A stretch of DNA of 64,000 nt from Thermoplasmata archaeon (GCA_021806135.1 JAJZYB010000006.1:7735-71734), one strand, 5' to 3'; shown: positions 2,943 to 43,204, counted from the stretch's first letter. The notes: generated by a model not told the origin, from the sequence alone. Numbers and translations are program-made.

Positions 2943-5585
2943 CTACGGGGGTGGGACACGGTGGGTTCCGTGCTCACGGCGGCGACGCCGTAGCAGCAGG
3001 ACGCCCGCGACGAGGAGACCGGCCGCCAAGGCACCGACCCCAAGGCTCTCCCAAGGCTCCGCGGGGGCACCGAAACGGCCGGTCGGCGTTGCGTTCGAAG
3101 GGGCCAGCGGCAGCGCCACCCCTTGAGAAACCGGCTGCCCGTTGACCACCACATGGAAGACCATCGGAGCATAGCCCGAAGCGTTGGTCTGGACCGTGTA
3201 GGAACCGTTCGCCACCAGGAACGTGTACCCCCCCGAGGGTGAGGTGAGCACCCAGTCGCTGGCCGAGAGGCTGACGTTCGCCGCGTCGATGGGCCTTCCT
3301 GTCGTCTCGGAAGAGACGACCCCCGTCAGGGGGAACGTCTGGGCCAGGAGCGAGAAATTCTCGCTCGCTGCCTCTCCATGGACGACAACGAGCGTGCTCT
3401 CTTCCAAGAAACCGGCCTTCTGTACCGTGAGCGGATAGCTCCCGTTCCCCGCCCAGAACCAGAAGGTCCCGTTGCCGCCCGTGCGGAACGCGCCCGTGGA
3501 GTTCCAGGCGACCGTGGCGTTCTGGACCGGGGACTGGTTGGAGGCGTACCTCACGACCCCCGAGATCTCGTAGAGGAGGGTCCTGACGAGGGAAAAGTTC
3601 TGGTCGACGGGGGCACCCGAGACCGTGATCGAAGCCTCTTGGGCCTGGTACCCGGCCGCGGCGATCGAGACCGAGTAGGTCCCGTTCTGAAGGCCCATCC
3701 CAAACCTTCCCGTGGTGTTCGTCGTGACGTTCCCCGCGCCGCGGACCGAGAGGATGGCGTTCGGGACCGGCAGGCCCTGACCCGCCGCCGTCACCTCCCC
3801 CTGCCACCGGTAGAGAACGGGGGTCAAGGGGACATTCTCCACAAGGTTCGCGCCGTTCACCAGCACCGTGAGATCGACGCCGTGGTACCCTGGGTCCGTT
3901 ACGCGAAGCGCATAGCTCCCATTAGGTGCGTTGAAGGAGTATGCGCCCGTAGGTCCCGTGAGCACCGTCCCCACCCCGGCGAGGGTGACGTTCGCCCCGG
4001 CCACGGCCGTGCCGGCCGTCTCGAAGGTCACGGTGCCCGACACGACGTACGTTCCGAACGATAGGGGAGCGAGGGCAAAATCCTGGGTCTGCGGAGCCCC
4101 GCTCACCCGGGTCGAAACGCTCAATGGCGTGTCCCCCCGGGCGGTCGCCGTGACCGTGTAGGTGCCGTTCGCGAGGGACATGCCGTAGTCGCCCTGCGCG
4201 TTGGTCTCGGTGGACGGGCCGTTGGGAACGGACACGTTGGCGCCCACGATGGCGGCTCCCGTCCAGGCGTTCGTAACGGACCCGGACAGCCCGTAGACCC
4301 GGGGGAGGAGCGTAAAGTCTTGGGTGAGGTTCGAACCCGAGACCTCGGCCGTGACGCTCGAGCCAAGGAAGCCGGCGGCGGAAGCGCTCACCGTGTAGGA
4401 CCCGTTGGTCAGCCTCACCGAATACTCTCCCGAAGTACCGGTCGTGGTGGAGGTCCCCCCCAAGATGGCAACCGTGGCCCCCGGGATGGGCGCGTTCGTC
4501 CCGGAGGTGGTGACCACTCCCGAGAGAGTGTAACCATCCGTGCTCGGAAACCTGAAGAGGCCCTTCATCGCGGGAAATGCTGCGGTGCTGTCATGGCCGG
4601 TCCCAGTGCCCGGCAGCCCAAGGAGCCACTCGATGGTCGACATCAGGTTGTAGTGGGAGGCGTTCGTGGCGTCCACGGCCCCGATGCCTTTCGAGTACGG
4701 GCTCACCGACGCCAGATAGACGGGACCGCCATCCAGGCCGTGGTAGCCGCTTCGGGGCTGGGAACCGAACGACTCATCGTACGTCACGAAGATGGCGCTG
4801 CTGGAGAACCACGTCTGATTCACGAGCTTGGACACGAACCGGGAGAGGAACCAATCCGCCACAGCGGCGGAGGTGTCGTGCCCGTCGTTCCGCAGGTTCG
4901 GTGCGATGAAGGTGAAGTTGGGAGGGGTGTTCCGGAACGGATAGTCTTCCGTGAGGTTCGCGAGAGGGAGGTCATGGGTCCTGCAGATCGAGCCGGAGGC
5001 GTCGCCGCCGAGATTGCCATAGAACGGGACAGGATTGTGGCGCACTGCGTATTCGCCGGAGGATTGGATGTCGCAGGCCGCGGGCATGCTCTCCGCGTAC
5101 GCCGTCCAGGACCGGCCGGCGGTGTCGAGCAGAGTGAAGAGGTTCTTTTCGGTGGTGTAGTTGTGGTAGGCGTCCGAACCGCACTGCAGGGGGTTCCCCG
5201 AGGTCACCGCCAGGTAGTTCGGCGCGGAAGGATGGCAGACCGCGTAGTACCCGGTCATGTGGTGGGTGAGCGCATCGCCCCCCCAGGCGTACGCATTGGC
5301 CAAGTGGGTCTCAAATGGCACTTTGCCGTAGATCTGATCGACCCCTTCGTTCTCCATGTAGATGAGGAACACGTGCCGGATCGGGGTCGGGAGGATGCTC
5401 CCCAGAGCCACCGGCGCGAGGGCCACGCCCGCGCTCGGCGGGCTTCCGCTCCCCTCAACGGTCCCGGTCGTCCCGATCCCGCTCGCGACCACCAGTACGA
5501 CCAGCACCGATATCAGGAGGGATTCCAGGGGCGTGCCAAGGCGCCGTGGCTTGAAGCCCTCCGCGAGGGGTGGGTCCTGCGCCAT
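2943..5585 (-). CDS. Secreted phosphoesterase-family enzyme (phospholipase C/acid phosphatase fold) with tandem carboxypeptidase-regulatory-like (CarboxypepD_reg) domains and C-terminal TM anchor
   Basis: N-terminal signal/TM; motifs HVFLIYMENEG...DQIYG and PNLRNDGHDTS match the phosphoesterase family (ENxxxD, NDxH); followed by at least 5 repeats of the G..V.....G......T...G.Y.....G.Y pattern; ends with hydrophobic stretch plus RRRRR. Confidence 0.65.
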   Translation of the reverse strand: MAQDPPLAEGFKPRRLGTPLESLLISVLVVLVVASGIGTTGTVEGSGSPPSAGVALAPVALGSILPTPIRHVFLIYMENEGVDQIYGKVPFETHLANAYAWGGDALTHHMTGYYAVCHPSAPNYLAVTSGNPLQCGSDAYHNYTTEKNLFTLLDTAGRSWTAYAESMPAACDIQSSGEYAVRHNPVPFYGNLGGDASGSICRTHDLPLANLTEDYPFRNTPPNFTFIAPNLRNDGHDTSAAVADWFLSRFVSKLVNQTWFSSSAIFVTYDESFGSQPRSGYHGLDGGPVYLASVSPYSKGIGAVDATNASHYNLMSTIEWLLGLPGTGTGHDSTAAFPAMKGLFRFPSTDGYTLSGVVTTSGTNAPIPGATVAILGGTSTTTGTSGEYSVRLTNGSYTVSASAAGFLGSSVTAEVSGSNLTQDFTLLPRVYGLSGSVTNAWTGAAIVGANVSVPNGPSTETNAQGDYGMSLANGTYTVTATARGDTPLSVSTRVSGAPQTQDFALAPLSFGTYVVSGTVTFETAGTAVAGANVTLAGVGTVLTGPTGAYSFNAPNGSYALRVTDPGYHGVDLTVLVNGANLVENVPLTPVLYRWQGEVTAAGQGLPVPNAILSVRGAGNVTTNTTGRFGMGLQNGTYSVSIAAAGYQAQEASITVSGAPVDQNFSLVRTLLYEISGVVRYASNQSPVQNATVAWNSTGAFRTGGNGTFWFWAGNGSYPLTVQKAGFLEESTLVVVHGEAASENFSLLAQTFPLTGVVSSETTGRPIDAANVSLSASDWVLTSPSGGYTFLVANGSYTVQTNASGYAPMVFHVVVNGQPVSQGVALPLAPSNATPTGRFGAPAEPWESLGVGALAAGLLVAGVLLLRRRRREHGTHRVPPP

Positions 5586-6043: not shown

Positions 6044-7516
6044 GTGGTCCCTCCTGTGGTCCCTCCAAACCCGGCCCCGGGCGGCTCCCCTCCCCGGCTC
6101 CGACGCAATGTCCTCCACCTGCTCGATCTCATCCCGCTCTCGACGTCCAGCGTCGCCCCCACCTTCAGCCTCGCCGCCGCCTTCGGGGTCATGGTCGCCT
6201 ACGCCGGCCCCCAGGCGATCATGTCCGTGCTGGTCGCCTTTCCCTTCTTCCTCTTCGCCGCGCTGCTCTTCCGTCAGTTGAACATCCACTACCCGCACGC
6301 GGGAGCCTCCTACCACTGGGGAAGCCGCATCGTGGGCCGGCGCTTCGGCGGGCTCCAGGCCTGGATCGTCACCCTGGCCTACTTCCTCTCCCTCCCTCCG
6401 ATCCTGATACCGGCGGGCGCCTACACCCTGAGCCTCCTCTCCTCCTTCGGCCTGGTCTCCTCCCCTGTGGTCTCGAGCGTCTTTTGGCAGTCCATGACCG
6501 GCATCGCCTGGGCCGGGGTGGCCGCGATCCCCCTCATCCTCGGCGCCAAACCCACGGCCCGGTTCACCGAGGCGTTCCTCCTCGTGGAAGTGGTGATCCT
6601 CGGGGTCTTCCTGGGAGTGGGGTTTCTTGCCCTGCCCACCCACACGGTGAACCCCGTGTCGCTCTCCTGGTTCTTCTCCACCCGGGTGAACCCCCTGGAT
6701 TTCGCCCTCGCCTTGGTGGTGGTGGCCACCATCCTCGATGGCTGGGAGATCGACAGCTACGCCTCGGAAGAGGCCCGACGCCCGCGTGACTGGCCCGGGA
6801 CCTCGGGGATTTTGGGGCTTCTCTGCGTCTTCGCCATCTATCTGGTCACCATGCCCCTCATGGTCGCAGAGACCCCCCTCTCGTCGCTCTCCTCCAGCCC
6901 GGACCCGTTGGCCACCTGGATCGGGGGCGTCATGCCCTCGGCCACCTGGGGAATGGACCTCGCGGTGATCATCTCCACCGCCAGTTCCCTCTGGCTCACC
7001 GCGTTCATCTTGAGCCGGGCCTGGTACGCCCTTGGACGGGATGGGCTCCTGCCCGGGGCCTTCGCGCGCCTCCATCGGCGGTTCCAGAGCCCCTGGTTCA
7101 GCGTCGGCGTGATCACCTCGGCGGAGGTGGCGGTCCAGCTCACCGAGCTCACCTCCTCCTCCGTCTTCGCGTTCTTCAGCGTGGTGCTCACCGCCGCCGG
7201 GGTCTTCCTCATGCTCGAGTTCGCCTTGGACGCCATTTCCGCCACCGTGGGGCTCCGCAAGGCCCACCGGGCCCTCGCCCTGGAGCGCGGTGCCCTCCGC
7301 CACTCCCATCCGTTCTACCGGATCATCGCCCCGATCACGGCCGGGGCCATGCTCACCATCGTGGCCATCGGACTGTACACGAACATCACCCTCCTCTACG
7401 TCTCCAGCGCTCTGCTGGTCCCGGCGCTGTACTTTGTCTGGCGGGCCGCTCGGACCCCCTCCATCGCCCCTCCTCTGGAACCGGAGGCCGGAACTCTCCT
7501 GCCAATCCCCCCTTGA
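6044..7516 (+). CDS. APC-superfamily amino acid/polyamine permease
   Basis: 490 aa, 12 TM-like segments; N-terminal ...LHLLDLIPLSTSSVAPTFSLAAAFG... resembles the first TM/substrate site of APC transporters; true start may be a downstream Met. Confidence 0.6.
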   Translation: MVPPVVPPNPAPGGSPPRLRRNVLHLLDLIPLSTSSVAPTFSLAAAFGVMVAYAGPQAIMSVLVAFPFFLFAALLFRQLNIHYPHAGASYHWGSRIVGRRFGGLQAWIVTLAYFLSLPPILIPAGAYTLSLLSSFGLVSSPVVSSVFWQSMTGIAWAGVAAIPLILGAKPTARFTEAFLLVEVVILGVFLGVGFLALPTHTVNPVSLSWFFSTRVNPLDFALALVVVATILDGWEIDSYASEEARRPRDWPGTSGILGLLCVFAIYLVTMPLMVAETPLSSLSSSPDPLATWIGGVMPSATWGMDLAVIISTASSLWLTAFILSRAWYALGRDGLLPGAFARLHRRFQSPWFSVGVITSAEVAVQLTELTSSSVFAFFSVVLTAAGVFLMLEFALDAISATVGLRKAHRALALERGALRHSHPFYRIIAPITAGAMLTIVAIGLYTNITLLYVSSALLVPALYFVWRAARTPSIAPPLEPEAGTLLPIPP

Positions 7517-7626
7517 TGGAGGCATCCTCCGGGAACCCACGACCCATCTCTTGGGCACTGTAGGCACCAGGCCGAGCTGCCCTTCGCGCCGTTCTCCGGG
7601 AGTCTTGTCGAACAGGGCCCACTGCG

Positions 7627-8392
7627 TTAGTCGGGTCTGACGTCCATCAAACGCCCTGTGTCTTCCACCCGGGTCGAGCCTCGGACAGACGGTCTTGTCG
7701 CTGCGAGCACGACCCCTCCTGCGAAACCCCCCCGAGCCCCGTGCCTTCGTAGACGGCACCGTCTTGCTCCTGGCCTCCATCGTCGGGCTCCTCTTGGAGG
7801 CGCTGCAGGACCCCAGCCTTCCCGGTCAGTCGGTCGGACAGCGAGGTCAGGTCCTCCGAAGAGGGCCCAGGAACGAGTTCCTTGGTGACCTTGTTCCTCC
7901 TTTCGGCAGGGAGTCTGGAAGGTCGGCATCTTGCCGTCCTCCCTGGAGCGCTTGCGGGCCGCGGACATCGTCACCTTCTGCGAGGGCCGGTGCTTGGCCT
8001 CCTTCCGGTAGATGGTGAGCGTCGTCTCCGGCCCCGTCTTGAGCATCCGCTTCACCGCCGTGCGGGGGAACGACTTCAGATGCAGGTCCCCTTCAATCTC
8101 GGTCGACCGTTGCCGACCTTCTGCCCGCTGTGCTCCGCTCTGGGCACGGGGCGCGCGTAGGAGGCGAGGTGCCCTTGGTTGGAAAACCGGTTGATGGCTT
8201 CGATCTCCGCGAGGATCCCGTTGGCCGAGTAGAAGTTCACCCGGGGGTGATCATCAGGGAGTTGACATCCTTGCGTCCCTGGGTGGCCTTGGCCAGCTCG
8301 ACCTGCATCGCCTCCTCTCGTCGGAGGAGGAGCTCCAGTTGTTCGAGCTGTGCCCTGGGGATGGCCCTTAGGACGCGAGCATCCGTCTCCAT
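7627..8392 (-). pseudogene. IS110-family transposase relic (C-terminal Transposase_20 domain only; two frameshifts; N-terminal DEDD domain missing)
   Basis: Hand translation of the minus strand gives ...RKDVNSLMITPG / VNFYSANGILAEIEAINRFSNQGHLASYARPVPRAEHSGQKVGNGRPRLKG / ...LKTGPETTLTIYRKEAKHRPSQKVTMSAARKRS in three different frames. This matches the IS110 C-terminal consensus (IPGIG..tAa.llAEIGdi.RF.s...LasYAGlvPr..sSGk...g.isKrGn...YerllakGKpkkvAlvAvARKLL). There is no upstream catalytic domain. Confidence 0.6.
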
Positions 8393-8908
8393 TACCCGGG
8401 CATGAATCGTAAGCTCACAAGACCAAGAGTCTTTATACGGGGTTCCTTTTGCCTGTCATGGCGTAGGGCGGCGTGTCGAGCCTTGGCTGAGGGGAGACCC
8501 ACCCAGGCTGCCCGTCTTGACCGGGAAAGCGAATGGCTGAGGGGAATGGACGAAGGGCGGGACACGGAGAGAGTCAACGGGGACCGCCGAGACGATCCTC
8601 GCTGACAGAGGACCAACGACGACACCGGATCAATGAATTGTTCAGGCTGCAGAGCACCATTCAACGGTGGATAGAGGCCTCAGCGGATCGGGAGAAGGTC
8701 TCCGCCCTCATCGGGGTGAACATGTACGTCCAGGGGAGGATCCGGCTCCTGAGCGGAGGGAGGCCGAGAAGTGCCGAGGGAATGTCTGCGCTGGGAAGCC
8801 AACCTGTGACCCTTACCGTATGTCAAAGTCCTCATGGTCAAGAGGGAAGCGGGCAAAGTGTAGAGAGCGCCGGAATGCCAGGGGAACTTCTTCAACAAGG
8901 AAACGAAC

Positions 8909-11900
8909 ATGAATAGAAAAGCGCGTGTGAGAGCGGCAACAGCGGTACTAGTGACGCTAATCGCCGTAGTGAGCTTTTCACTAGGGGGCATTGCCTTGCC
9001 CACAACAACCTCAGCAAATACGGGCAGCACTTCAGCAAGTTCGACGGGCGCGGCTACCAGTGTAGTCAACACCCCTTTGGCCCAGATCACCCCGGCGTCC
9101 AACACACAAACGAGCGCCAATTCGCCGTACACTGTAAGCCCAGCGGCAACAACCAATTCTGGTCATGTGATGAGCGCATACATAGGGTTGAGTCCTACCT
9201 CCAGTATCAGCGCTTATCAACAAGAGATCAGCAACCCGGCATCTCCAATGTACAGACACTTCTTAACCGCAGCAGGAGTGGCGTCCAACTTTGGAACTTC
9301 GACCACTCAGTACCAAGCGACTGTCAACTACTTTGAAAGCTATGGATTGAGTGTTCAGACGAGCCCTGAGCGGTTGAGCTTGCAAGTGAGCGGAACAGTT
9401 GCTCAAATGGATGCGGCCTTCAACACTCAGATCGGAGCCTACAACATCGTATACAAGTCTGATGGAATATACAACAATCTGTTCGGACAAAGCAGCGCTG
9501 TAAACGGGACAACATCAAACATAACTATTTATGCAAATAGTGTTCCGACATACTTACCATCCGGACTAGACGTGGCAGGGATATCAGGTGTCGGGCAGAA
9601 CCTTGCGCAGGATGCATTAGCTCTACCGTATAACACGTCGGCATCGTCCGACTTCAATGCGTCTCAATACCAGCGTGGCGGCCTTACCGGCAACGTCGGA
9701 TACAACCACGCATTCCAGGTGGACACAAACACAGGTGCAGGTAACTACACCTGGACCAATCCAACCATGTCTCCAGGACTTGGCAATCTGCTGGGCAACA
9801 CGGGCAACTATCAATTCCTATTCCCCAGTTCGATGCCTACGCTGATGGGGGCCAACAACCTGTGGAGCGGTGGCACTACAATAGCCAGTGAGCCAGATCT
9901 TGGACAGGGCGTGACCATCGCGGTGATAGAGGTGGGGTGCCCACTCATTAGTGATCTGCAGCAGTTTGCCCAGATGACATTCAACAATTCTGGGCAGATC
10001 ACTAGCAGACTCAGTATTATTGGTATAAACAATGCACCATCTGGTGTCTCAATGAATACTTACAATCAATGTGTGAACCGGGGATTCGCTTATGGCTGGA
10101 CATTAGAGACCGAGTTGGACATTGAATATGCAGCCACCATGGCCCCTGACGCACACATAGACGTGATTGCATTGCCGACAGCTGACTTCACGGACTTCTT
10201 CCAGGCGTATACCGACATTGCCAGCTATCTCACATCCGGATCAGCCGTGACGCTTCCATCGTCCGTGGGAACGGTCTTCAACAGCCTAACTGGCTCGGCT
10301 GGTCAGGGCGTTAGCGCGGCAGCGGCTTCCATCAGCATTACCAGCAATTCTTACGGGGAAGGGGAGCTGTACGGACTGTTTGCAGGAACGCCAGTTTACC
10401 AAATACTCTCCAATGAAACACTAGGGACTCTAGCCATACAGGGAGTCACAAATTTCTTTGCTAGTGGAGATACATCATCCATAGGGTTCGGCTCAGGAGG
10501 ACCGCTACAGGCGGGGATGTTTGCACAATCCACCGGAGTGACCTCTGTTGGTGGAGGTATGCTCACCGCCGCAGGTTCCAATGGGGAGTATCCAGCCACC
10601 GGAAACTATGTATATCTACGTTCTCAATTTGGTTACATATTCAATGAGACAGTGGTCCCTGCCAGCGCAGTTGCATCGTTTACATACTGGGCTGAGGGCG
10701 TTTCACTGTGCTTCAACTTCATTTACCCGGGCGACTGTTTCCCCATCATCGGGCTAGGGTTCTTCGCTGGTGGAGGATTCGGAGTCAGTACAACTCAAGC
10801 ACAGCCGTGGTGGCAGAACGCACTGGACACCTACTCGACTGGCGCAAAGATCGTTCCAGTGATTGCCGGTTCAGCCGACTTCAACATGTCGGTGTGGGCC
10901 TTTGGCGGGTGGGACCAGCTGTTCGGGGGAACGTCCTTTGCTACCCCCATAGAAGCTGGATCCTGGGCACTCATAGAGGAACAGTCGATAGTGGCGTTTG
11001 GAAACCAGAAGTTTGGTGACATCAATTCATTGCTGTTTGCTGACCACAACGCGCAGCAGGCTGGAGTGTCGTCCATTGGAACAGATGCATTCATACCCAT
11101 GACTGATCTCGGAACGGGCCCAGAGCCAACCGCGTGCAACATCGTGGCGTTTATTGCGCAGTGCATCCAGTTTTGGGCTCCGGGAAATCCGTTCATCACC
11201 GGACTGGCCAACGCATCATCATTCTACCCGGCGGATCCCAACATCCCGTCGTGGTATGCCACACTCAACAACCCAGCTGGGAGTGGATGGAACTTCCTAC
11301 AAGGGCTTGGACTTCCACAGACAGATGTTCTGGATCAGCAAATAATCGGACAAGTACCTAGTTCGCAGCACGCATTAGCTAACGAACCATTCGCTGTTAC
11401 AGAAGTCACTTCATCTGGAGACATTCCGTTCGGACAACTGACAGGGGGGACCAGCTATACTTTCCAGATCGTACAGTCCAATGGGCTCACTGGGGGAACG
11501 TTCAACGTACAGGCCTATGACGGAGGACTGAACGATGGGACTTATGGCGGAGGAACTACAACCACAATGCAGGTCACCAACGGAGAGTTCACGTTCACGC
11601 CAACATACGCAGTAAATGCAGCTATGCCCCCAAGTGCATCTAGCGAATACGGGTACTTCCTAATTGGCGTGCCTGGCAGCAGTGCGTGGGCGTTCCAAGC
11701 ATTTTCCGTAGTACCGTCGGCAGCTAATGGAACGCTGCAACTGGGCGTACAGACCGAGAATGGACTCATCACCTCCGGTGAAGCGATCGTGCAGATGATC
11801 GGGGCATCCGATCCGGTCGTCGGCGGAGGGGGTCCATCCTACGGAGGATTGGACACCGTCACGCTCAATGGGATGCCGGTCCAGGATGCCGTGGTTACAG

Positions 11901-13570
11901 AGACCGCGGTACAGACCAACTTCGCAATCTTCGACCCCACCATAAACCCGACAATGTTCAGTCCAGGAGCTACGGTCGGTTCATTCCTCACGGATTCCTC
12001 AGGAATGTCTGGATTCTGGAAGAACAGTGTGCTAGAGGGACTTGAACCAATAGGGGTTCCTCAGCCCCTGCCGCTGACACCATCTGTGTTCACATTACAG
12101 GCCAGCTACGGGGGCCTCACATCAAACCCAGTCACGGTGGTTGTTGAACCGGAAGGGGGAAACTTCGTGAACAACCTGGCCCTCAACGCTGCTGGTACAG
12201 CTATCACCGGACAGCTCCAATTTGAAGCAATGCCTTGGGTTAGCAGTGTGAATGTTAGCGTAGGTGGTTCACCTGGTCAATACCAAGTGACAAACTTCGT
12301 GGCCAACACTGTAAAGACTGGAGTCATCAACGTAGATCTGACCAGCCTGCCATCGGGCCCGGTCGTCGTCAGCGCCATAGCGACCGGCGCTAACTTGTAC
12401 CCCAGCTTTGGTTGCGGCGGATGGCTGGAATTCCTAACGTGTGGATTCAGTGATACACCAACAAACTACGCGTTACAGTGGCAGGATCCATTGGTGTTCC
12501 TACCAGCAACATTGACTTCTACCGGAACGAGCACGATCGTATCGGGAGACGTAACGCTGTCATACAGTGGAACGGCAGCCGCCCAGGCCACAGGTACATT
12601 GCGACTAGTCTCCGGGCAAGGGACGCAAACCCTGGCCACGGGTATCTCTGGTGCTTACACACTCAATACTGCAACATTGCCTGATGGATGGTACAGCGCT
12701 GTGTATACTGAGACTGGATACGGGACCTCAACTACGAAGACTGTGACATTCTACACGGACAACGTTGCCGAGTCACTGAACTCAACGATCAGTGCTCTAC
12801 AGCAAGAAGTGCAAAGCCAGAAATCTACAATCTCTGACTTGAACGCTGAACTGTCCTCAGACGCTAGCACGATCAGTTCGCTACAAGCGAGTCTCGCATC
12901 TGCGAACGCAAACATTGGAGAGCTGCAAGCCCAAGTGTCCACGCTGCAGGCACAAGTGTCTGGCCTGCAGGGAACCGTCTCTACCCTGAACGGCCAGTTG
13001 GCCTCCGCACAGTCTAGTATCACCTCGTTGCAAGCCCAGGTCGCCTCCCTCAATGTTACAAGTGCGGCCGACGCGAGTTTGATCACACAGCTAAAGGCAG
13101 ATCTGTCTGCGGCTCAGACCACTATTGGGACACAGCGATCCCAGCTGAGCGCTGACCAGGCGACCATAACTTCTGACAACCAGACAATTCAGACACTGCA
13201 GAACGAGCTGGCACAGAGGAAGACCGCAGCGCCACTACCGGCAGCGGCATCCGCTCAGCCCCCAATTTCCATGATGGAGGTGTTGTTAATTGTGATTGCA
13301 GCACTGGCCATTGGTGGTGGAGTTGGGTATGTTCTTGCACGCCGAAGCAAGAAGGAAAACCAGACCGTCGCCCATGCTGGCGAGCCGGTATCTAGGAGGA
13401 TGACGGCGAGCAGCGTTGAGGGGCTCAGCACACTCATGAAGGCGGCCAAGTTACAGAAGACGCTGACATCCCGAGGAAACTACGTCGAAGCGCAAATGGT
13501 GGGGGTTCGTGTCGAGAGCCTCATGAGGGAGATGGGAGTTGACCGGAGCCAGGTTTACAAGACCAACTGA
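8909..13570 (+). CDS. Membrane-anchored sedolisin/kumamolisin-like (S53) serine peptidase with pro-domain, long C-terminal coiled-coil stalk and C-terminal TM anchor
   Basis: Signal peptide; region HFLTAAGVASNFGTSTTQYQATVNYFESYGLSV...LSLQVSGTVAQMDAAFNTQI resembles the pro-kumamolisin activation domain; GGTSFATPIEAGSWALIEE resembles the catalytic-Ser motif; ~300 aa of Q/S/L/A heptad-like repeats (..ISALQQEVQSQKSTISDLNAELSS..LQAQVSTLQAQVSGLQ..) then hydrophobic TM plus RRSKKE; gene is ~50% GC versus ~68% flanking. Confidence 0.55.
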   Translation: MNRKARVRAATAVLVTLIAVVSFSLGGIALPTTTSANTGSTSASSTGAATSVVNTPLAQITPASNTQTSANSPYTVSPAATTNSGHVMSAYIGLSPTSSISAYQQEISNPASPMYRHFLTAAGVASNFGTSTTQYQATVNYFESYGLSVQTSPERLSLQVSGTVAQMDAAFNTQIGAYNIVYKSDGIYNNLFGQSSAVNGTTSNITIYANSVPTYLPSGLDVAGISGVGQNLAQDALALPYNTSASSDFNASQYQRGGLTGNVGYNHAFQVDTNTGAGNYTWTNPTMSPGLGNLLGNTGNYQFLFPSSMPTLMGANNLWSGGTTIASEPDLGQGVTIAVIEVGCPLISDLQQFAQMTFNNSGQITSRLSIIGINNAPSGVSMNTYNQCVNRGFAYGWTLETELDIEYAATMAPDAHIDVIALPTADFTDFFQAYTDIASYLTSGSAVTLPSSVGTVFNSLTGSAGQGVSAAAASISITSNSYGEGELYGLFAGTPVYQILSNETLGTLAIQGVTNFFASGDTSSIGFGSGGPLQAGMFAQSTGVTSVGGGMLTAAGSNGEYPATGNYVYLRSQFGYIFNETVVPASAVASFTYWAEGVSLCFNFIYPGDCFPIIGLGFFAGGGFGVSTTQAQPWWQNALDTYSTGAKIVPVIAGSADFNMSVWAFGGWDQLFGGTSFATPIEAGSWALIEEQSIVAFGNQKFGDINSLLFADHNAQQAGVSSIGTDAFIPMTDLGTGPEPTACNIVAFIAQCIQFWAPGNPFITGLANASSFYPADPNIPSWYATLNNPAGSGWNFLQGLGLPQTDVLDQQIIGQVPSSQHALANEPFAVTEVTSSGDIPFGQLTGGTSYTFQIVQSNGLTGGTFNVQAYDGGLNDGTYGGGTTTTMQVTNGEFTFTPTYAVNAAMPPSASSEYGYFLIGVPGSSAWAFQAFSVVPSAANGTLQLGVQTENGLITSGEAIVQMIGASDPVVGGGGPSYGGLDTVTLNGMPVQDAVVTETAVQTNFAIFDPTINPTMFSPGATVGSFLTDSSGMSGFWKNSVLEGLEPIGVPQPLPLTPSVFTLQASYGGLTSNPVTVVVEPEGGNFVNNLALNAAGTAITGQLQFEAMPWVSSVNVSVGGSPGQYQVTNFVANTVKTGVINVDLTSLPSGPVVVSAIATGANLYPSFGCGGWLEFLTCGFSDTPTNYALQWQDPLVFLPATLTSTGTSTIVSGDVTLSYSGTAAAQATGTLRLVSGQGTQTLATGISGAYTLNTATLPDGWYSAVYTETGYGTSTTKTVTFYTDNVAESLNSTISALQQEVQSQKSTISDLNAELSSDASTISSLQASLASANANIGELQAQVSTLQAQVSGLQGTVSTLNGQLASAQSSITSLQAQVASLNVTSAADASLITQLKADLSAAQTTIGTQRSQLSADQATITSDNQTIQTLQNELAQRKTAAPLPAAASAQPPISMMEVLLIVIAALAIGGGVGYVLARRSKKENQTVAHAGEPVSRRMTASSVEGLSTLMKAAKLQKTLTSRGNYVEAQMVGVRVESLMREMGVDRSQVYKTN

Positions 13571-13583
13571 GTGAACCATTTCG

Positions 13584-13605
13584 GGGGGTCTGAAAAGACC
13601 CCCTT
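13584..13605 (+). terminator. Perfect hairpin immediately after the S53 gene stop (GGGGGTCT-GAAA-AGACCCCC) followed by a T-containing tract
   Basis: Inverted repeat with 8-bp GC-rich stem and GAAA loop 14 nt after the stop codon at 13570. Confidence 0.5.
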
Positions 13606-13882
13606 GACCTTTCCTCCACGGAGGGGTTGAGCAGGGTGGGAGGCGGGTGAGAGCCCGCGTTCTGGTTACTGGGGACCGGGAGGCAGGACCTTGCCGGGAC
13701 CGTCGCGGTGAGTCGGTCGTGGACTCTGAGGGAACCCCTGACTGTGGGGCCCCTCTCTCACTTTCCCCTCCCGGCAGGGGGGAAGGATTGGAGCTTTAGG
13801 CAGATCGCGGGAGGATTCATGGAATGCAGATCCCGTTCAATGGGCAGTCTCCCCGGGAAGCAACCCTTATCCCTGAGGGCCC

Positions 13883-14134
13883 TTGCGCCTTGCTGATATG
13901 GACGGACCCTTGGTCTTCCTCTCCCAGTTCATGGAGCGGAAGGTGGTGGTCCGGCTCAAGGACGCGCGGACCCTGGAAGGCCGCCTCCTGGGGTTCGACG
14001 AGCATCTCAACCTGGTGCTCGACGAGACCTTGGAGCGGAACGACGAGGCGGGTCGCCGTCTGGGACGGGTGGTGGTACGAGGGAACAACGTGCTCGCGCT
14101 GAACGCACCCCCCGGCCCCGGCGCTCCCGCGTGA
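13883..14134 (+). CDS. Sm-like (LSm/SmAP) RNA-binding protein
   Basis: PLVFLSQFMERKVVVRLKDARTLEGRLLGFDEHLNLVLDETLE...RLGRVVVRGNNVLAL matches the archaeal Sm1/Sm2 motifs; start may be the Met at 13898. Confidence 0.8.
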   Translation: MRLADMDGPLVFLSQFMERKVVVRLKDARTLEGRLLGFDEHLNLVLDETLERNDEAGRRLGRVVVRGNNVLALNAPPGPGAPA

Positions 14135-15860: not shown

Positions 15861-16673
15861 ATGCCGGAAAGGCTCGCCGTGACCCTCCCGCCCCGGGCCC
15901 GGGAGACCCTCGTGCGCTTCCTCTCGGCCCAGGTGGCGGAGGCCTCGGCTTCCGGGGTCGTAGTAGGCCTCTCGGGAGGGGTGGACAGTGCCCTGGTGGC
16001 CCGCCTGGCGCGAGAGGCCCTGGGCCCGGAGCGCGTCCGGGCCCTCTCCCTCCCGGACGAGAACACCCCCCCGGCGCTCCGGTCCGAGGTGAAGCAGTTC
16101 GCCGATGACCTGGGCATTCCGCTGCGGGAGGTCTCCTTGGAGCCCTGGTTCGCCGCCTTAAAGACGGACCTCCCGGAGCTATCGGACCGGACCGGGGGTG
16201 GGAATGCCCGGGCCCGGCTCCGGATGATCGCCCTCTACGCCCACGCCCGGGCCCACCAGGCCCTGGTCCTCGGCACCGGGAACAAGTCTGAGATCCTGCT
16301 CGGTTATTTCACCAAATTCGGCGATGGGGGCGCCGACCTCCTCCCCCTGGGCGATCTCTACAAGACGGCGGTCTATGCGCTCTCCCGGGACGTGGGTCTT
16401 CCCTCGGGCATCCTCGACCGTCCTCCGTCCGCCGGCCTCTACCCCGGACAGACCGACGAGGAGGAGCTCGGAGAGCCCTATGCCACCTTGGACCCCATCC
16501 TCCGGGGCCTGGAAGAGCTCTGGGAACCGGAGGCCATCGCCCGGGAGCTAAAGCTCCCGCTCCCCCGGGTCCTGGCCGTGGCGCGTCGGGTCGATGCCTA
16601 CCGGCACAAGCGGAGGCTTCCCCCGATCCCGAAGCTGGGTCTGCGTACCGTGGGTCTGGATTGGAGGGACTAG
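15861..16673 (+). CDS. nadE: NH3-dependent NAD+ synthetase
   Basis: PP-loop GLSGGVDSA; conserved LGTGNKSE..GYFTKFGDGG..L.PLGDLYKT motifs. Confidence 0.85.
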   Translation: MPERLAVTLPPRARETLVRFLSAQVAEASASGVVVGLSGGVDSALVARLAREALGPERVRALSLPDENTPPALRSEVKQFADDLGIPLREVSLEPWFAALKTDLPELSDRTGGGNARARLRMIALYAHARAHQALVLGTGNKSEILLGYFTKFGDGGADLLPLGDLYKTAVYALSRDVGLPSGILDRPPSAGLYPGQTDEEELGEPYATLDPILRGLEELWEPEAIARELKLPLPRVLAVARRVDAYRHKRRLPPIPKLGLRTVGLDWRD

Positions 16674-34140: not shown

Positions 34141-37100
34141 ATGGTCGATTCCATTGATGGCAGCGGGGGGTGGTGGCGACGCCACGGCCTGGTGGTCTTC
34201 CTCCTGGCCCTGGCCGCCTCCATCTCGCTCATCCTCCGGGTCCTGTACTCCTACCAGCTGATCTCCACCTGTGACGTCTACTATTGCTTCGCCGGGGGAT
34301 CGGACTCCTTCTACCACGCCCGGGTGATGCAGTACATCATCACCTACCACACGAACCTCATCCACGACGCGGCGCTGAACTACCCGTTGGGCTACACCAA
34401 CCCCCGGGAACCGCTGTTCGACTGGATGAACGCCATCTTCGGGATCCTGCTCGCCCCGTTCTTCGGCGGGAACGCGGTCCAGGCGGGAATGTGGGTCCTC
34501 GAGATGCAGCCGGCGATATGGGCCGCCCTCGGGGTCTTCCCCGTCTACCTGCTGGGGAAGGAGGTCTCGTCCCGGCGGATGGGGGTCGTCGCCGCCCTCC
34601 TCTTCCCCCTCATCGTGGGGAACATGGAGAGCACGGTGGCGACCTATGCCAATTACCTGTCCTTCTACGCGTTCTTCGTGGTCCTTTCCCTGGCCCTCTT
34701 CATCCATACGGCCAAGCTCGCGGGGACCCGCCGCTGGGTGGAGAGCTACCGGTCCCCCCGGGCGGTCTGGGCGGGGCTGAAGGCGTTCGCCCGGACCGAG
34801 GAGATGTCCGTCCGCTGGGCGGTCCTCACCGGCGTCACCCTGGGCGCCACCATGCTCGCCTGGCAGGGGTATACCTACGTGGTGGCCGTGGTGGTGATCT
34901 TCCTGGCCGTCGTCCTGGTGGTGGAACGCATCCGGGGCCTGGACTCCTTCGGCCTCTACGTGGTGACGCTCATCGTGGGCACCGTGGGCTTCCTCATGGC
35001 CATGCCCTACTACTACATCCAGGGGGACTTCGGGTACTGGTTCACCGTCCCGCTCTTCCTCTGGTTCGGCGGGCTGTTGGTGCTCCTGCCCTTCCTCTTC
35101 CTGAGGAACGCCCCCTGGGTGGTCTCCGTGCCTGCGCTCTTCCTCTCCGTCCTGGCCGCGGCCGGGGGCCTCTACCTGTACAACCCCGCGTACTTCAGCG
35201 CGGTGCTCACCGGGCAGGGCTACTTCATCAAGAGCCTCATCTACTCCACCGTCGCCGAGGCGCAGGCCCCGAGCTTCGACGCGCTCATCGTGAGCTACGG
35301 GGTGCTCACCTTCTTCCTGGCCTTCGCGGGGCTTGCGCTGTTCCTCTACTATCTCTACGCCCACCGGTTCCGCCGGGAGCACGTCTTCATGGTGATCTTC
35401 AGCCTGCTGGGGATCTACCTCCCGGTCTCGGCGGCGAAGTTCTTCCTCTTAGGATCGCCGGTCTTCGCCCTCCTCCCGGCGGAGGTCGTCCTGGTGGGGA
35501 TCGACCGGCTGGGCCTCCCGCAGATGCGCCGGAACTTCGCCTCCCTCGGGGGAAGGGGGAACCGCTGGCTCGCCCTCCGCCGCTCGGTGAAGCTCCGTCA
35601 CGTGGCGGTGGGCCTCATCCTGATCGCGCTCCTGCTCCCGAACGTCTGGTATGCCACGGACGCGGCCATCCCCTACAACGTGAAGGCCCAGTACAACCAG
35701 CAGGTCTACAACTCGCTTCCGCCGGGGCTGAGGGCCTCTCCCGCGAATGCCACCTCCGCCTACTTCGGCGCCGCGGGGATCCAGGTGGACACTCCCACCC
35801 AGTATGACGAGAGCGGGTACAATTGGTTGGCCCAGCAGGATACGAACATCCTGCCGATCAGTTCGCGTCCCGCCTTCATCAGTTGGTGGGATTACGGGTT
35901 CCAGGCGCTGGATCAGGGCCAGCATCCCACGGTCGCCGACAACTTCCAGGATGGGATCGACCCTTCCGGTAATTTCCTGCTGGCCCAGAACGAGTCAGCC
36001 GCCATCGGGGTCATGGCGGCGGACCTCCTCTACGCCGAGGCCCAGACCTCCGGGAAGCCGTACCTCCCGGCCGCTTTGAACGCGCAACTGGCCAACGACA
36101 ACGTGAACTTGACCCTGCTTCACGCCTACCTGGCCAACCAGACCGCCGACGTGAGGATCGTCCTGGGGAACCCGAACCTCTACGGACCGTTCAACCCTGC
36201 CACCATCAGCCCACTGAGCGCCATGTACAACGTGGTCTCCATCTTCCTGGCCTCCAGCCTCTCGGAGAACCAGGTGGTGAAGGTCTACCAGGACGTCCAG
36301 GCCTACACGGGCTGGAGCATCCGTTACGCCATGTCCAACAGCCTGCTCTTCCCCTCGTCCGGGAGCAACACGGGGATCTTCTACGCCCCGGCGGACCTCA
36401 CCGGCCGGGTGATCAGCTCCGGGGGCATCCCCACGGGATTCTTCCAGGTGACGGTCCTCGGCACGGACGGGAACACCTACATCCTCGGCCAGCAACCCCC
36501 CGGCGTGGGCGTGGCCTCCTACAACATCAGCTACGCCCCCTCGTTCTTCAACAGCATGATCTACCGCTTCTTCGCCGGGTACAACGGGACCGACATCGGT
36601 GCCGGGGCCGGCATCCCCGGGCTGTCGAGCTCGCTGTCGAACTACCAGCCCGAGCCCGGCTGGATGATGCAGCACTTCATGGTGGGGTACCGGACGGCCT
36701 ACTGGTGCCCCTACAAGGACTACCAGGCGCATCCCAACTGCTTCGTCGCGGTGAACTACCAGCAGGCGCTGGCCTACCAGACCGCGGGGATCGGGACGGT
36801 GGACCTCTCGCCGACCTCGTATTACAGCAACGGCGAGACGATCATGGAATACTACCCCGGGGCGACGGTGGTCGGGTCGGTCCGGCTGGCCGACGGGAAG
36901 CCCGCCCCGGGTCTCCGGGTCACCGTGCTGGACCAGTACGGCACCCCCCACATGACCGTCACCACCAACGCCCTGGGCGGCTACTCCCTCATCGCCCCGC
37001 CGGGCCCGGTCTCGGTGGTGGTGAGCTACGGGGCGCTCGACCCGCTCACGCAGGAGGGGGCCTACGTGGTGGCGGAGCAGAACCTCACGATCACCCAGGC

Positions 37101-43097: not shown

Positions 43098-43204
43098 GGC
43101 CGGGATGGGGTAGTTTGGTTATCCTGGGGGACTGTGGATCCCTCGACCCGGGTTCAAAGGGAGCGGGGGACCACCCCCCGCTCCGGAGAATCTCGGTCCC
43201 GGCC
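43098..43204 (+). tRNA. tRNA-His (anticodon GUG) with encoded G-1 and a ~32-nt intron in the T-loop (between positions ~59/60)
   Basis: Hand fold: G-1, acceptor GCCGGGA/TCCCGGC, discriminator C73. D-arm GGGT-AGTTTGGTTA-TCCT. Anticodon stem GGGGA/TCCCT with loop CTGTGGA (U33, G34U35G36, G37). Variable CGAC. T-stem CCGGG/CTCGG with loop TTCAAA|T, which is restored only after removing GGGAGCGGGGGACCACCCCCCGCTCCGGAGAA (43159..43190), itself a perfect hairpin. Confidence 0.6.

What the first reader, a model, noticed from the sequence alone, without database searches (positions are those of the whole stretch)
7627..13610. ~5 kb low-GC island encoding a giant tail-anchored sedolisin-like protease, abutting a degraded IS110 transposase
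The 4.66-kb gene at 8909..13570 is ~50% GC with A/T-biased third positions, while everything else in the window is ~68% GC. This sharp compositional break points to recent horizontal acquisition. The protein has an unusual architecture: signal peptide, S53 pro-domain plus catalytic domain, a ~300-aa Q/S/L-rich coiled-coil stalk, then a C-terminal TM anchor. A perfect GC hairpin (GGGGGTCT-GAAA-AGACCCCC) follows the stop codon; its stem is 100% GC despite the gene's ~50% GC. On the other side the island touches a frameshifted IS110-family transposase that lacks its N-terminal half. That relic is either the vehicle for the insertion or a casualty of it.
Basis: partly seen in the sequence, partly recalled or inferred. 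Interest (0 to 1): 0.7.

Follow-up and report, generated by a model that had tools for sequence, protein, structure and literature searches.

The report
Foreign gene for stalked surface protease
A high-GC acid-mine archaeon has picked up, from a low-GC relative, a 6.3-kb DNA segment encoding a giant acid protease predicted to sit on a membrane-anchored coiled-coil stalk; the transfer is well documented but ordinary, and the protein family is unstudied.

Summary
Window 8909..13570 is an intact 1553-codon gene at 53.6% GC and GC3 0.57. The rest of the window is 69% GC with GC3 about 0.9.

Close relatives (83-89% nt identity) have the permease gene followed after 107 nt by the Sm gene. So window 7517..~13845 (6.3 kb) is an insertion. 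An independent assembly reproduces both junctions.

The insertion holds an IS110 relic, a decayed small ORF, the protease gene and its 3' hairpin. The nearest homologues (79-82% aa) carry the same hairpin and small ORF, and sit natively in 35-45% GC contigs. A sister copy lies at a different locus in another ~70% GC contig.

Third positions show 273 AT->GC against 37 GC->AT changes on the window branch. The gene is therefore partly ameliorated, and the transfer is not very recent.

The protein has a signal peptide, an S53 pro-domain and catalytic domain, Ig-like beta-sandwiches, a 22-heptad coiled coil, a TM helix and a small cytoplasmic domain. The fold matches pro-kumamolisin, and E400, D404, D521 and S676 are invariant. 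The coiled coil is about 155 aa, not 300. This is a type I membrane protein, not a tail-anchored one.

The family is confined to Thermoplasmata. A close relative of the host carries three native high-GC paralogues. The IS110 relic's role is unresolved; a casualty or bystander is more likely than a vehicle.

The parts
7517..13845 (.). Whole inserted segment (6.3 kb) relative to the empty site of close relatives. It replaces about 55 nt of the permease-Sm spacer.
   Evidence: In blastn of L166-L173 against the window, homology ends at 7516 (the permease stop) and resumes at 13841-13851. Logan contig L175 is 100% identical over 7238..13961, across both junctions.
7517..7763 (.). Unassigned host-like-GC sequence between the permease stop and the end of the IS110 relic. 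It may be the IS 3' end.
   Evidence: No match in any fetched locus except L004, which is the same locus. GC of 7517-8400 is 0.652.
7764..8394 (-). IS110-family transposase relic. Only the middle and C-terminal part survives, with at least 2 frameshifts and in-frame stops. The N-terminal DEDD domain is missing.
   Evidence: The stitched frames hit PF02371 at 5.9e-11. tblastn of P0107 residues 112-308 maps to 8347..7797, and of the C-terminal tail of P0106 down to 7764; the METD... start of the stitched frame, read by eye at ~8394, lies at about P0107 residue 100. No N-terminal remnant lies elsewhere in the window.
8533..8916 (+). Decayed copy of a ~130-aa companion ORF with a probable zinc-ribbon C-terminus. 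In the low-GC relatives this ORF lies downstream of the protease gene. Here it is upstream and overlaps the protease start by 8 nt.
   Evidence: tblastn with the L001 copy gives E 1.3e-7 and 32% identity. The alignment shows a 23-aa internal deletion and loss of the CPDC motif.
8909..13570 (+). Intact gene for a 1553-aa surface protein, the giant stalked S53 (sedolisin-like) peptidase. GC 0.536, GC3 0.57.
8909..9001 (+). Signal peptide (residues 1-31): a K/R-rich n-region followed by a hydrophobic core at residues 9-31.
   Evidence: Hydropathy scan and the translation.
9155..9460 (+). S53 activation (pro-kumamolisin) domain, residues 83-184.
   Evidence: PF09286 at E 8.1e-16. The model aligns with the pro-kumamolisin and TPP1 precursors.
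9806..11068 (+). S53 catalytic domain, residues ~300-720. It carries E400, D404, D521 (oxyanion) and S676 (in GGTSFATP).
   Evidence: These four residues are invariant in 33 and in 50 family members. Profile hits to TPP1 and kumamolisin cover the SGD and GTS motifs. Foldseek gives 1t1e at 6e-22 and 3edy at 2e-19.
11390..12757 (+). Run of roughly five Ig-like beta-sandwich domains, residues ~828-1283. This region is specific to the family.
   Evidence: AF2 model m43161bf84428. Foldseek hits are to tandem Ig-like arrays: adhesin repeats, Haloferax and Deinococcus S-layer proteins, and macroglobulin domains. Only 37 cluster representatives out of 1.84 billion match this region.
12761..13222 (+). 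Coiled-coil stalk: 22 unbroken heptads (a = I/V, d = L) with a Ser/Thr/Gln/Ala-rich surface, residues 1285-1438.
   Evidence: Heptad print-out and 3.5-residue periodicity. The model shows a long helix at 1286-1434. Sequence match to the coiled coil of Sulfolobus SlaB (8qox_B) at 5.8e-5, and 4.6e-8 with the profile.
13277..13342 (+). C-terminal transmembrane helix, residues ~1457-1478.
   Evidence: Hydropathy of 2.0-2.5 over windows 1451-1478.
13409..13564 (+). Small cytoplasmic three-helix domain, residues 1501-1552.
   Evidence: Helices at residues 1501-1552, where 10-residue block mean pLDDT is 74-90. Weak DUF7269 hit at E 0.025.
13583..13604 (+). Post-stop hairpin: an 8-bp stem plus a G-U pair, with a GAAA loop. 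It was transferred together with the gene.
   Evidence: -19 kcal/mol. The same stem follows the stop codon in the low-GC relatives L002 and L174. nt homology with L002 ends at about 13612.
13613..13845 (.). Unassigned 233 nt of host-like GC (0.652) between the end of the low-GC segment and the resumption of homology with the empty site.
   Evidence: No match in any fetched locus, no Rfam hit, and no fold better than shuffles.

Best explanation
The segment 7517..~13845 is foreign DNA that entered the spacer between an amino-acid permease gene and the Sm (LSm) gene. The host is an uncultured ~69% GC Thermoplasmata archaeon; near-identical DNA occurs in a mine-drainage metagenome.

Its core (about 8400..13612) came from a low-GC (35-45%) archaeal lineage, probably also Thermoplasmata since the whole protein family is confined to that class. 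That core consists of a small zinc-ribbon-like ORF (now decayed), a 4.66-kb gene, and the gene's 3' hairpin. Since arrival the gene has drifted roughly halfway towards host composition while staying intact under purifying selection.

The gene encodes an extra, xenologous copy of a Thermoplasmata-specific surface protein. A close relative of the host carries three native high-GC paralogues.

Proposed working of the protein (inferred): it is exported by its signal peptide. The S53 pro-domain is removed autocatalytically at low pH, as in kumamolisin and TPP1. The active serine-carboxyl peptidase head then stays tethered to the cell. The tether is a chain of Ig-like domains, a ~23-nm coiled-coil stalk (probably trimeric, as in SlaB), one TM helix and a small cytoplasmic domain. 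The likely role is digestion of external protein next to the membrane for a peptide-scavenging acidophile, and it may also form part of the cell coat.

Shown: the insertion, its composition, the donor-like clade, amelioration, the fold and the catalytic residues. Inferred: export, autoprocessing, oligomeric state, activity and physiological role.

The IS110 relic at the left edge is most likely a bystander or casualty. It is truncated exactly at the junction with the low-GC DNA.
For: Composition: gene GC 0.536 and GC3 0.57, against 0.69 and about 0.9 for the host, 11 sd below other 4.66-kb windows.

Empty site: eight contigs of relatives (permease >=90% aa identity, 83-89% nt) show permease, 107 nt, then LSM-RFK-rSAM-NadE-TPD-HisRS. 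Homology to the window breaks at 7516 and resumes at about 13845.

Not an assembly artefact: L175 (Logan, 100% identical) spans both junctions. L004 (another sample, 99.7%) spans the left junction.

Donor-like clade: L002, L003 and L174 (79-82% aa) and L163 (67-68% aa identity to the window protein; 81.5% to L001) lie in 0.35-0.45 GC contigs with matching GC3 of 0.31-0.35. L174 and L002 have the same hairpin and small ORF.

Second transfer: L001 carries a sister copy (GC3 0.33) at a different locus of a 0.70 GC contig. Identities give ((window, L002), (L001, L163)).

Low GC is not intrinsic to the family: 23 loci whose flanks are 0.64-0.71 GC hold copies with GC3 0.82-0.96. These include three paralogues in YP4.bin26, the same MAG that shows the empty site.

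Amelioration: window-specific third-position changes are 273 W->S against 37 S->W. For L002 they are 50 against 79. A rough clock based on host divergence predicts GC3 0.60, and 0.57 is observed.

Selection: pN 0.12 against saturated pS 0.77, with no stop or frameshift in 1553 codons.

Protein: PF09286; invariant E400, D404, D521 and S676; profile hits to TPP1 and kumamolisin; Foldseek to pro-kumamolisin at 6e-22 with TM 0.73; beta-sandwiches, a long helix and a cytoplasmic bundle; 22 heptads, a TM helix, a signal peptide, 16 sequons and very few K/R residues in the ectodomain.
Against: - The actual donor is not sampled. Synonymous sites are saturated against the nearest low-GC relative, so a donor of intermediate GC cannot be told apart from in-situ amelioration.
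- The integration mechanism is unknown. There is no integrase, tRNA, target duplication or significant terminal repeat.
- 7517-7763 and 13613-13845 are unexplained.
- The small ORF is on the opposite side of the gene compared with L001, L002 and L174.
- No Pfam catalytic-domain model hits the protein directly.
- No expression or activity data exist.
- A sister population (L004) has a TAG at codon 870, which may mean the gene is dispensable.
- The window branch has 1.6 times more amino-acid changes than the L002 branch, 120 against 74.
Confidence: 0.82

Rival explanations
1. The gene is native, and its low GC comes from its unusual amino-acid composition or from selection on a highly expressed surface-protein gene, not from transfer.
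For: The protein is rich in S, T, N, Q, G and A and poor in K and R. GC1 (0.53) and GC2 are also below the GC1 of neighbours. In several low-GC genomes the family gene is somewhat GC-richer than its flanks, which shows a protein-driven composition effect.
Against: GC3 is the position least tied to the protein, and it is 0.57 against about 0.9. Family members in other high-GC genomes have GC3 0.82-0.96. Close relatives lack the gene at this locus. The nearest homologues live in low-GC contigs.
Confidence: 0.02
2. Assembly chimera: a fragment from a co-occurring low-GC organism was wrongly joined into a high-GC contig.
For: The data are metagenomic. Low-GC relatives of the gene occur in assemblies with neighbouring ENA accession numbers (L163).
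Against: Both junctions are reproduced at 100% identity in a Logan assembly of SRR13235777. The left junction is reproduced in an assembly of another sample. The gene's GC3 (0.57) matches no sampled low-GC genome, and it shows a 7:1 W->S bias, as expected for residence in a high-GC genome. The flanking relic and spacer are host-like in GC.
Confidence: 0.03
3. The IS110 element was the vehicle. The low-GC cargo was mobilised or captured by the IS110 recombinase, or by recombination between IS copies, and the IS then decayed.
For: The relic lies inside the 6.3-kb insertion and touches the low-GC DNA. Other islands and family genes also sit next to transposases: L001 has a DDE_3 fragment, L028 an intact IS110, and L089 a DDE_Tnp_1 gene at the same Sm-upstream site.
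Against: There is only one partial copy and no second IS end. No N-terminal remnant lies on the far side of the island. The two edges share no significant repeats. From general knowledge, IS110-family elements move as minimal circles and are not known to carry cargo. The relic's GC (0.65) is host-like, unlike the cargo. Only three homologues at <=60% identity were found, all on short contigs, so the IS ends could not be defined.
Confidence: 0.15
4. The protein is mainly a structural cell-coat or S-layer anchor (a SlaB analogue), and the S53 head is inactive or has a non-proteolytic role.
For: The beta-sandwich, coiled-coil and TM architecture resembles SlaB, and the coiled coil matches 8qox_B. 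Multiple paralogues per genome and 16 N-glycosylation sequons are typical of coat proteins.
Against: The full catalytic set E400, D404, D521 and S676 is invariant in all 50 aligned members, and the pro-domain is kept. The match to SlaB is limited to the coiled coil, where composition alone can give such scores. The coat role and the protease role are not mutually exclusive.
Confidence: 0.1

Closest known systems
Sedolisins, MEROPS family S53 (kumamolisin, sedolisin/PSCP, human TPP1)
   Same: It has the N-terminal activation domain (PF09286) and a subtilisin-like catalytic fold. It has the Ser-Glu-Asp triad plus an oxyanion Asp, in the motifs ETELD, ASGD and GGTSFATP. The best fold matches are pro-kumamolisin 1t1e and the TPP1 precursor 3edy. 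The acidic habitat fits an acid optimum.
   Different: Known sedolisins are soluble enzymes of about 550 aa as precursors. This one is 1553 aa, with about 830 extra C-terminal residues: Ig-like domains, a coiled-coil stalk, a TM helix and a cytoplasmic domain. Sequence identity to solved S53 enzymes is only 14-23%. No Pfam or NCBIfam catalytic model reaches threshold.
SlaB, the membrane-anchored stalk of the Sulfolobales S-layer (PDB 8QOX chain B; PMC10903991)
   Same: Both have beta-sandwich domains followed by a long Ser/Thr/Gln/Leu heptad coiled coil and a C-terminal TM helix. The coiled coils match in sequence at 5.8e-5 (4.6e-8 with the profile).
   Different: SlaB has no enzyme domain and works with a separate lattice protein, SlaA. 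The similarity is confined to the coiled coil, so common descent is unproven. A trimeric state here is only assumed by analogy.
Tetrabrachion with its bound STABLE protease in Staphylothermus marinus (own knowledge; Peters et al. 1995 is listed in the references of bioRxiv 10.64898/2026.08.21.746120)
   Same: The idea is the same: a protease held away from the membrane on a long, membrane-anchored coiled-coil stalk of an archaeal cell surface.
   Different: There the protease is a separate subtilisin-type (S8) polypeptide bound non-covalently to a ~70-nm four-stranded stalk. Here an S53 protease and a ~23-nm stalk are one polypeptide. No sequence relationship was tested or claimed.
Horizontally acquired genomic islets with compositional amelioration (concept of Lawrence and Ochman; own knowledge)
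   Same: It shows atypical GC and GC3, absence from the syntenic site of relatives, an adjacent IS remnant, and directional drift of third positions towards host composition.
   Different: It is very small, effectively one gene. It has no integrase, tRNA or direct repeats. The transferred gene duplicates a function for which a close relative of the host already holds three native paralogues.
IS110-family insertion sequences
   Same: The relic has the Transposase_20 (PF02371) domain. Its closest homologue with a source name comes from a mine-drainage metagenome.
   Different: It is not a functional element. The DEDD catalytic domain is missing, there are at least 2 frameshifts, and the ends are undefined.

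Membership tests
Peptidase family S53 (sedolisin) | N-terminal pro-kumamolisin-type activation domain | tested here: met
   PF09286 at residues 83-184, E 8.1e-16, 59 bits against a cutoff of 23.5.
Peptidase family S53 (sedolisin) | Subtilisin-like alpha/beta catalytic fold closest to solved sedolisins | tested here: met
   AF2 model with pLDDT 78 and pTM 0.85. Foldseek top hits are 1t1e (6e-22, TM 0.73 on the target), 3edy (2e-19), kumamolisin-As and PSCP (1e-11 to 1e-12). S8 subtilisins score much weaker.
Peptidase family S53 (sedolisin) | Catalytic Ser-Glu-Asp triad plus oxyanion Asp | tested here: met
   E400, D404, D521 and S676 are invariant in 33 and in 50 family sequences. The SGD and GTS motifs align with TPP1. 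Equating ETELD with the EVELD motif of kumamolisin (E78/D82) rests on my memory of that sequence.
Peptidase family S53 (sedolisin) | Endo- or tripeptidyl-peptidase activity with an acidic optimum, and autocatalytic pro-domain removal | not testable with these tools
   This needs an enzyme assay.
SlaB-type S-layer stalk proteins | Beta-sandwich domains, a long C-terminal coiled coil and a TM anchor | tested here: met
   The model shows beta-sandwiches at about 828-1283 and a helix at 1286-1434. There are 22 heptads and a TM helix at 1457-1478.
SlaB-type S-layer stalk proteins | Sequence homology beyond the coiled coil | tested here: not met
   The significant stretch of the 8qox_B match covers only the coiled coil, query 1286-1382. 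With the family profile the best stretch (profile positions 1227-1419, chain 278-468) again ends in the coiled coil.
SlaB-type S-layer stalk proteins | Trimer that anchors a separate lattice-forming partner (SlaA) | not tested
   No multimer prediction or partner search was possible.
Horizontally acquired genomic island | Composition and codon usage differ from the host | tested here: met
   GC 0.536 against 0.69, and GC3 0.57 against about 0.9.
Horizontally acquired genomic island | Absent from the syntenic site of close relatives | tested here: met
   L166-L173 have the permease followed by 107 nt and then LSM.
Horizontally acquired genomic island | Closest homologues lie in genomes whose composition matches the island's origin | tested here: met
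   L002, L174 and L163 are in 0.35-0.45 GC contigs with GC3 0.31-0.35.
Horizontally acquired genomic island | Integrase, tRNA target or flanking direct repeats | tested here: not met
   The only tRNA is at 43099. There is no integrase. The 9-nt repeat CCCCCTTGA is at chance level.
IS110 family insertion sequence | C-terminal Transposase_20 domain | tested here: met
   PF02371 at 5.9e-11 on the stitched frames.
IS110 family insertion sequence | N-terminal DEDD (PF01548) catalytic domain and an intact reading frame | tested here: not met
   No N-terminal match anywhere in the window. There are at least 2 frameshifts and in-frame stops.
Tail-anchored membrane proteins (strict sense) | No signal peptide, and a single TM helix at the extreme C-terminus | tested here: not met
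   An N-terminal signal-like hydrophobic segment lies at residues 9-31, and 75 residues follow the TM helix.

The most novel reading that the evidence does not exclude
These giant proteins could be the main surface coat of Thermoplasmata, including wall-less members. Each would be a fused protease-on-a-stalk that combines the roles played by SlaB or tetrabrachion and a separate protease in other archaea. The coat gene would be swapped between lineages across a 30-point GC gap as a small cassette (gene, 3' hairpin and a zinc-ribbon-like companion ORF). The transfer might go through a circular or tandem intermediate, which would explain why the companion ORF is on the other side in this window.
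Probability: 0.15. Interest if true: 0.65.

Novelty: new variant of a known kind. Interest (0 to 1): 0.45.

Why it matters
As a transfer event this is a clean example. It has an empty site, donor-like relatives that carry the same 3' hairpin and companion ORF, a second independent insertion, and measurable amelioration. Conceptually, though, it is ordinary.

The more useful point is the protein family. It is an acid (S53) protease permanently fused to an S-layer-stalk-like anchor. It is found only in Thermoplasmata, with 37 clusters among 1.84 billion representatives, and some genomes hold up to three copies. I found no description of it in the searchable literature.

Thermoplasmata are regarded as peptide scavengers, and many lack a wall. 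A tethered protease coat would bear on how they feed and on what their surface is made of. Homologues in cultured species such as Picrophilus oshimae and Thermogymnomonas acidicola make this testable.

Tried and rejected
- Pfam and NCBIfam scans of the whole protein gave only the pro-domain plus many spurious coiled-coil hits such as SMC, ATG16 and MAD. I disregarded these as compositional.
- A single-sequence PDB search of the E/D motif region returned chloramphenicol acetyltransferase noise above kumamolisin.
- tblastx of relatives' upstream regions against the window gave only high-GC noise.
- The more distant relatives L084 and L086-L089 keep Sm-RFK-rSAM synteny but have different genes upstream. 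They could not serve as an empty site. The permease cluster members solved this.
- I looked for the missing half of the IS110 to the right of the island, for repeats between the two edges, and for an RNA family or stable fold in 13605-13850. All were negative.
- I tried to find intact copies of the IS. Only three partial homologues at <=60% identity turned up, on contigs under 1.4 kb.
- I tried to name the donor lineage through the neighbouring helicase. The best other hit was 56% identical and no informative names came back.
- The GTDB-representative scan did not contain the window's own gene. The best hit was 45%.
- A scan of viral contigs for the family found nothing.
- Nucleotide alignment of the region upstream of the start codon against L174 gave no clear junction for the permuted small ORF.
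- A check for a displaced C-terminal part of the truncated L028 gene beyond its IS110 was negative.

Full report
**1. The observation**

The window is uniformly GC-rich: 0.69 outside the feature, and every 1-kb bin outside the feature is 0.64-0.74.
- Between about 8400 and 13610 GC drops to 0.51-0.58.
- The ORF 8909..13570(+) is 1553 codons. It is 53.6% GC with GC1/2/3 = 0.53/0.51/0.57.
- Frames elsewhere with the signature of real genes have GC3 0.83-0.95.
- Other 4.66-kb windows average 0.691 (sd 0.014, minimum 0.658), so the gene is about 11 sd below.

The break is real. However, GC is 54% rather than 50%, and third positions are AT-shifted only relative to the host.

**2. The empty site**

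The permease next to the feature belongs to a 90%-identity cluster with members on many long contigs.
- Eight such contigs were fetched. They include NCBI MAGs GCA_027378585, GCA_027378795, GCA_027378775, GCA_027378655, GCA_027321945 and GCA_021827405 (Thermoplasmata archaeon YP4.bin26).
- All eight show permease, 107 nt, then LSM, CTP-dependent riboflavin kinase, radical SAM, NAD synthase, TPD and HisRS.
- These contigs are 83-89% identical in DNA to the window. Homology stops at 7516, the permease stop codon, and resumes at 13841-13851.
- The window therefore carries a 6.3-kb insertion, 7517..~13845, in place of about 55 nt of spacer.

Assembly error is unlikely.
- A Logan assembly of run SRR13235777 (L175) is 100% identical over 7238..13961, across both junctions.
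- A contig from another sample (L004) is 99.7% identical over 6843..12815.
- A mine-drainage metagenome contig, AUZY01006553 (L083), is 96-99% identical in protein over the three genes downstream of Sm (RFK 3' end, radical SAM, NAD synthase), so near-identical DNA occurs in mine drainage.

More distant relatives keep the Sm-RFK-rSAM block but have other genes upstream.
- In L084 the upstream gene is DnaK.
- In L089 there is citrate synthase, then a different 4.5-kb low-GC patch with a DDE transposase directly upstream of Sm.
- The position upstream of Sm therefore seems to be a repeated landing place.

**3. Anatomy of the insertion**

From left to right:
- 7517-7763: unassigned, host-like GC.
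- 8394..7764 (minus strand): IS110-family transposase relic. Three stitched frames hit Transposase_20 at 5.9e-11. The relic corresponds to residues ~100-308 of a partial mine-drainage IS110 transposase (P0107, 308 aa). It has at least two frameshifts and lacks the DEDD domain.
- 8533..8916: a 127-codon ORF.
- 8909..13570: the large gene.
- 13583..13604: the hairpin.
- 13613-13845: 233 nt of host-like GC with no match, no Rfam hit and no unusual fold.

No tRNA, integrase or significant terminal repeat is present.

**4. Where the core came from**

The nearest homologues of the protein are metagenomic.
- P0001 is 82% identical in BLASTP and 79.5% over the full alignment. It lies on contigs L002 and L003; the near-identical gene on L174 is 78.5% identical to the window protein.
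- P0002 is 71% identical (L001).
- P0004 is 68% identical (L163).

Their contexts differ sharply.
- L002, L174 and L163 are 0.35-0.45 GC throughout. Their copies have GC3 0.31-0.35, so the gene is compositionally at home there.
- L001 is a 0.70 GC contig whose neighbours have GC3 0.86-0.92. Its copy has GC3 0.33. It lies at a different locus, after CO-dehydrogenase-type genes, and abuts a DDE_3 transposase fragment.

Pairwise identities give ((window, L002), (L001, L163)). Each pair joins one native low-GC copy to one island in a high-GC genome. This indicates two independent low-to-high-GC transfers.

Two non-coding or accessory features travelled with the gene.
- The stem GGGGGTCT/AGACCCCC follows the stop codon in L002 and L174 as well, with one loop base different. 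Homology with L002 ends about 8 nt after it, at ~13612. This explains why a GC-rich hairpin sits at the end of the low-GC gene. L001 has a different 9-bp hairpin at the same place.
- A ~130-aa ORF with a CxxxH...CPDC end follows the gene in L001, L002 and L174. The window ORF 8533..8916 is a decayed homologue: tblastn E 1.3e-7, a 23-aa deletion, and the Cys motif lost. It lies upstream of the gene.
- In L174 no such ORF is upstream. A second giant paralogue is there instead.
- The permuted order suggests a circular or tandem intermediate. This is only a hypothesis.

**5. Low GC is not a property of the family**

A scan of GTDB species representatives found 148 relatives. Of the 78 distinct loci kept, 76 are titled Thermoplasmata or Thermoplasmatota (MAGs, Thermogymnomonas acidicola, Thermoplasma sp., Ca. 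Sysuiplasma); the other two are titled Methanobacteriota archaeon and, on a 4.4-kb contig, Anaerolinea sp..
- The best is only 45% identical.
- In the 23 full-length loci with 0.64-0.71 GC flanks, the gene has GC3 0.82-0.96.
- YP4.bin26, which shows the empty site, has three such native paralogues: L007, L009 and L015, at 38-41% identity.
- So this close relative of the host already carries three copies of the family, and the window gene is an additional xenologue.

**6. Age of the transfer**

I compared third positions at codons whose amino acid is identical in the window, L002 and L001 copies.
- Window-specific changes are 273 AT->GC against 37 GC->AT.
- L002-specific changes are 50 against 79.
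- Synonymous sites between the window and L002 are saturated (pS 0.77), while pN is 0.12. The frame is intact over 1553 codons. The gene has therefore been kept under purifying selection.

A rough clock gives a consistent age.
- Flanking host genes differ from the empty-site relatives by 13.3% strong-weak third-position differences at identical amino acids.
- In a two-state model with equilibrium GC3 0.9, this predicts that a gene starting at GC3 0.32 would now be near 0.60. The observed value is 0.57.
- The transfer is therefore about as old as the split from those relatives. It is not very recent.
- The L001 copy (GC3 0.33) looks much younger.
- A donor of intermediate GC cannot be excluded.

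**7. The protein**

Sequence features:
- Residues 1-31 are a signal peptide.
- Residues 41-82 are a T/S/A-rich linker.

Protease head:
- The pro-domain (PF09286, residues 83-184) and the catalytic domain (~300-720) are supported by a profile search (TPP1 3.5e-14, kumamolisin 2.9e-8).
- They are also supported by an AF2 model with pLDDT 78 and pTM 0.85. Its best PDB matches are pro-kumamolisin (6e-22) and the TPP1 precursor (2e-19).
- E400, D404, D521 and S676 are invariant in 50 sequences.

C-terminal part:
- The second model (pLDDT 71) shows a run of beta-sandwich domains at ~828-1283. They resemble tandem Ig-like arrays of adhesins and S-layer proteins.
- It then shows a helix at 1286-1434, and a small three-helix cytoplasmic domain at 1501-1552.
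- Residues 1285-1438 are 22 unbroken heptads with I/V at position a and L at position d. That is about 23 nm if fully helical.
- A TM helix follows at 1457-1478.
- The coiled coil matches that of Sulfolobus SlaB (8QOX chain B; PMC10903991). The match is limited to the coiled coil, so I treat it as architectural resemblance, not proven homology.

Other properties:
- The ectodomain has 16 N-glycosylation sequons and very few Lys or Arg residues, which fits an acid-exposed protein.
- The beta-sandwich region is found in only 37 of 1.84 billion cluster representatives. Where full length, these are proteins of 1150-1750 aa.

**8. Mechanism (inferred)**

The protein is exported by the Sec pathway. 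The pro-domain is cleaved autocatalytically at acid pH. The active serine-carboxyl peptidase is then displayed on an oligomeric stalk above the membrane. This fits the peptide-scavenging lifestyle proposed for Thermoplasmata, in which S53 enzymes and thermopsins are the predicted extracellular proteases (PMC5155288, PMC9287336, PMC10354927). A structural coat role is possible and not exclusive.

**9. The IS110 relic**

- It lies inside the insertion and is cut off exactly where the low-GC DNA begins.
- It is host-like in GC (0.65).
- It has no counterpart on the other side of the island.
- From general knowledge, IS110 elements are not known to carry cargo.
- I therefore favour casualty or bystander over vehicle. 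Without an intact copy of this IS the question stays open.

**10. Literature and verdict**

Full-text searches found S53 peptidases listed as predicted extracellular enzymes of Thermoplasmata. They found no description of this stalked architecture.

Verdict:
- The event is a well-supported but conceptually ordinary horizontal acquisition.
- The encoded family is an unstudied variant of sedolisins and deserves experimental attention.

Noticed in passing
window 11518 (and 11528); L004:4674-4676: A sister population (L004, 99.7% identical) has T>G at window 11518. This turns codon 870 (TAT) into TAG, so the gene was called as 869-aa and 429-aa pieces. It could be a truncated, non-anchored allele, a pseudogene or a sequencing error.
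   Followed up: partly
L089:4500-9000: In a more distant relative (557-kb contig), the same position directly upstream of the Sm gene holds a different 4.5-kb low-GC patch (0.53-0.59, against 0.65-0.73 for most of the flanks). It contains a DDE_Tnp_1 transposase and unknown ORFs. The site seems to be a repeated landing place for foreign DNA.
   Followed up: partly
L028:9965-14931: A family member of only 1158 aa ends before the stalk and TM helix. It is followed immediately by an intact IS110-family transposase ORF on the other strand. No displaced C-terminal part was found downstream.
   Followed up: partly
L001:14855-15244 and 15893-16261: The second high-GC host keeps the native order (gene, then small ORF). 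Its island abuts a DDE_3 (IS630-like) transposase fragment at the contig end. The low-GC DNA extends about 1.3 kb past the gene.
   Followed up: partly
L174:1-7846; L007, L009, L015: The family is multi-copy. Two giant paralogues lie in tandem in the low-GC lineage, 39% and 78% identical to the window protein. MAG YP4.bin26 has three copies on different contigs.
   Followed up: partly
window 34141-40716 (+): A 2191-aa ORF with host-like GC3 (0.92) combines an STT3/AglB oligosaccharyltransferase N-terminus with CarboxypepD_reg and Ig-like repeats. This is unusually long for AglB. It may be relevant to glycosylation of surface proteins such as the one studied.
   Followed up: no
window 2943-5585 (-): An 880-aa protein with a phosphoesterase domain followed by six CarboxypepD_reg repeats. 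It is probably another large secreted or surface enzyme.
   Followed up: no
window 7508-7516 and 13598-13606: The 9-nt string CCCCCTTGA occurs at the end of the permease gene (the left junction) and at the 3' arm of the hairpin (the end of the low-GC segment). Its score equals the mean of shuffled controls, so it is probably chance. It could also be a microhomology used in joining.
   Followed up: yes
L001:14483-14504: The sister gene in L001 has a different 9-bp hairpin (GAUUUC..GAAAUC type) at the same post-stop position. The structure, rather than the sequence, may therefore be what is conserved at the 3' end of these genes.
   Followed up: partly
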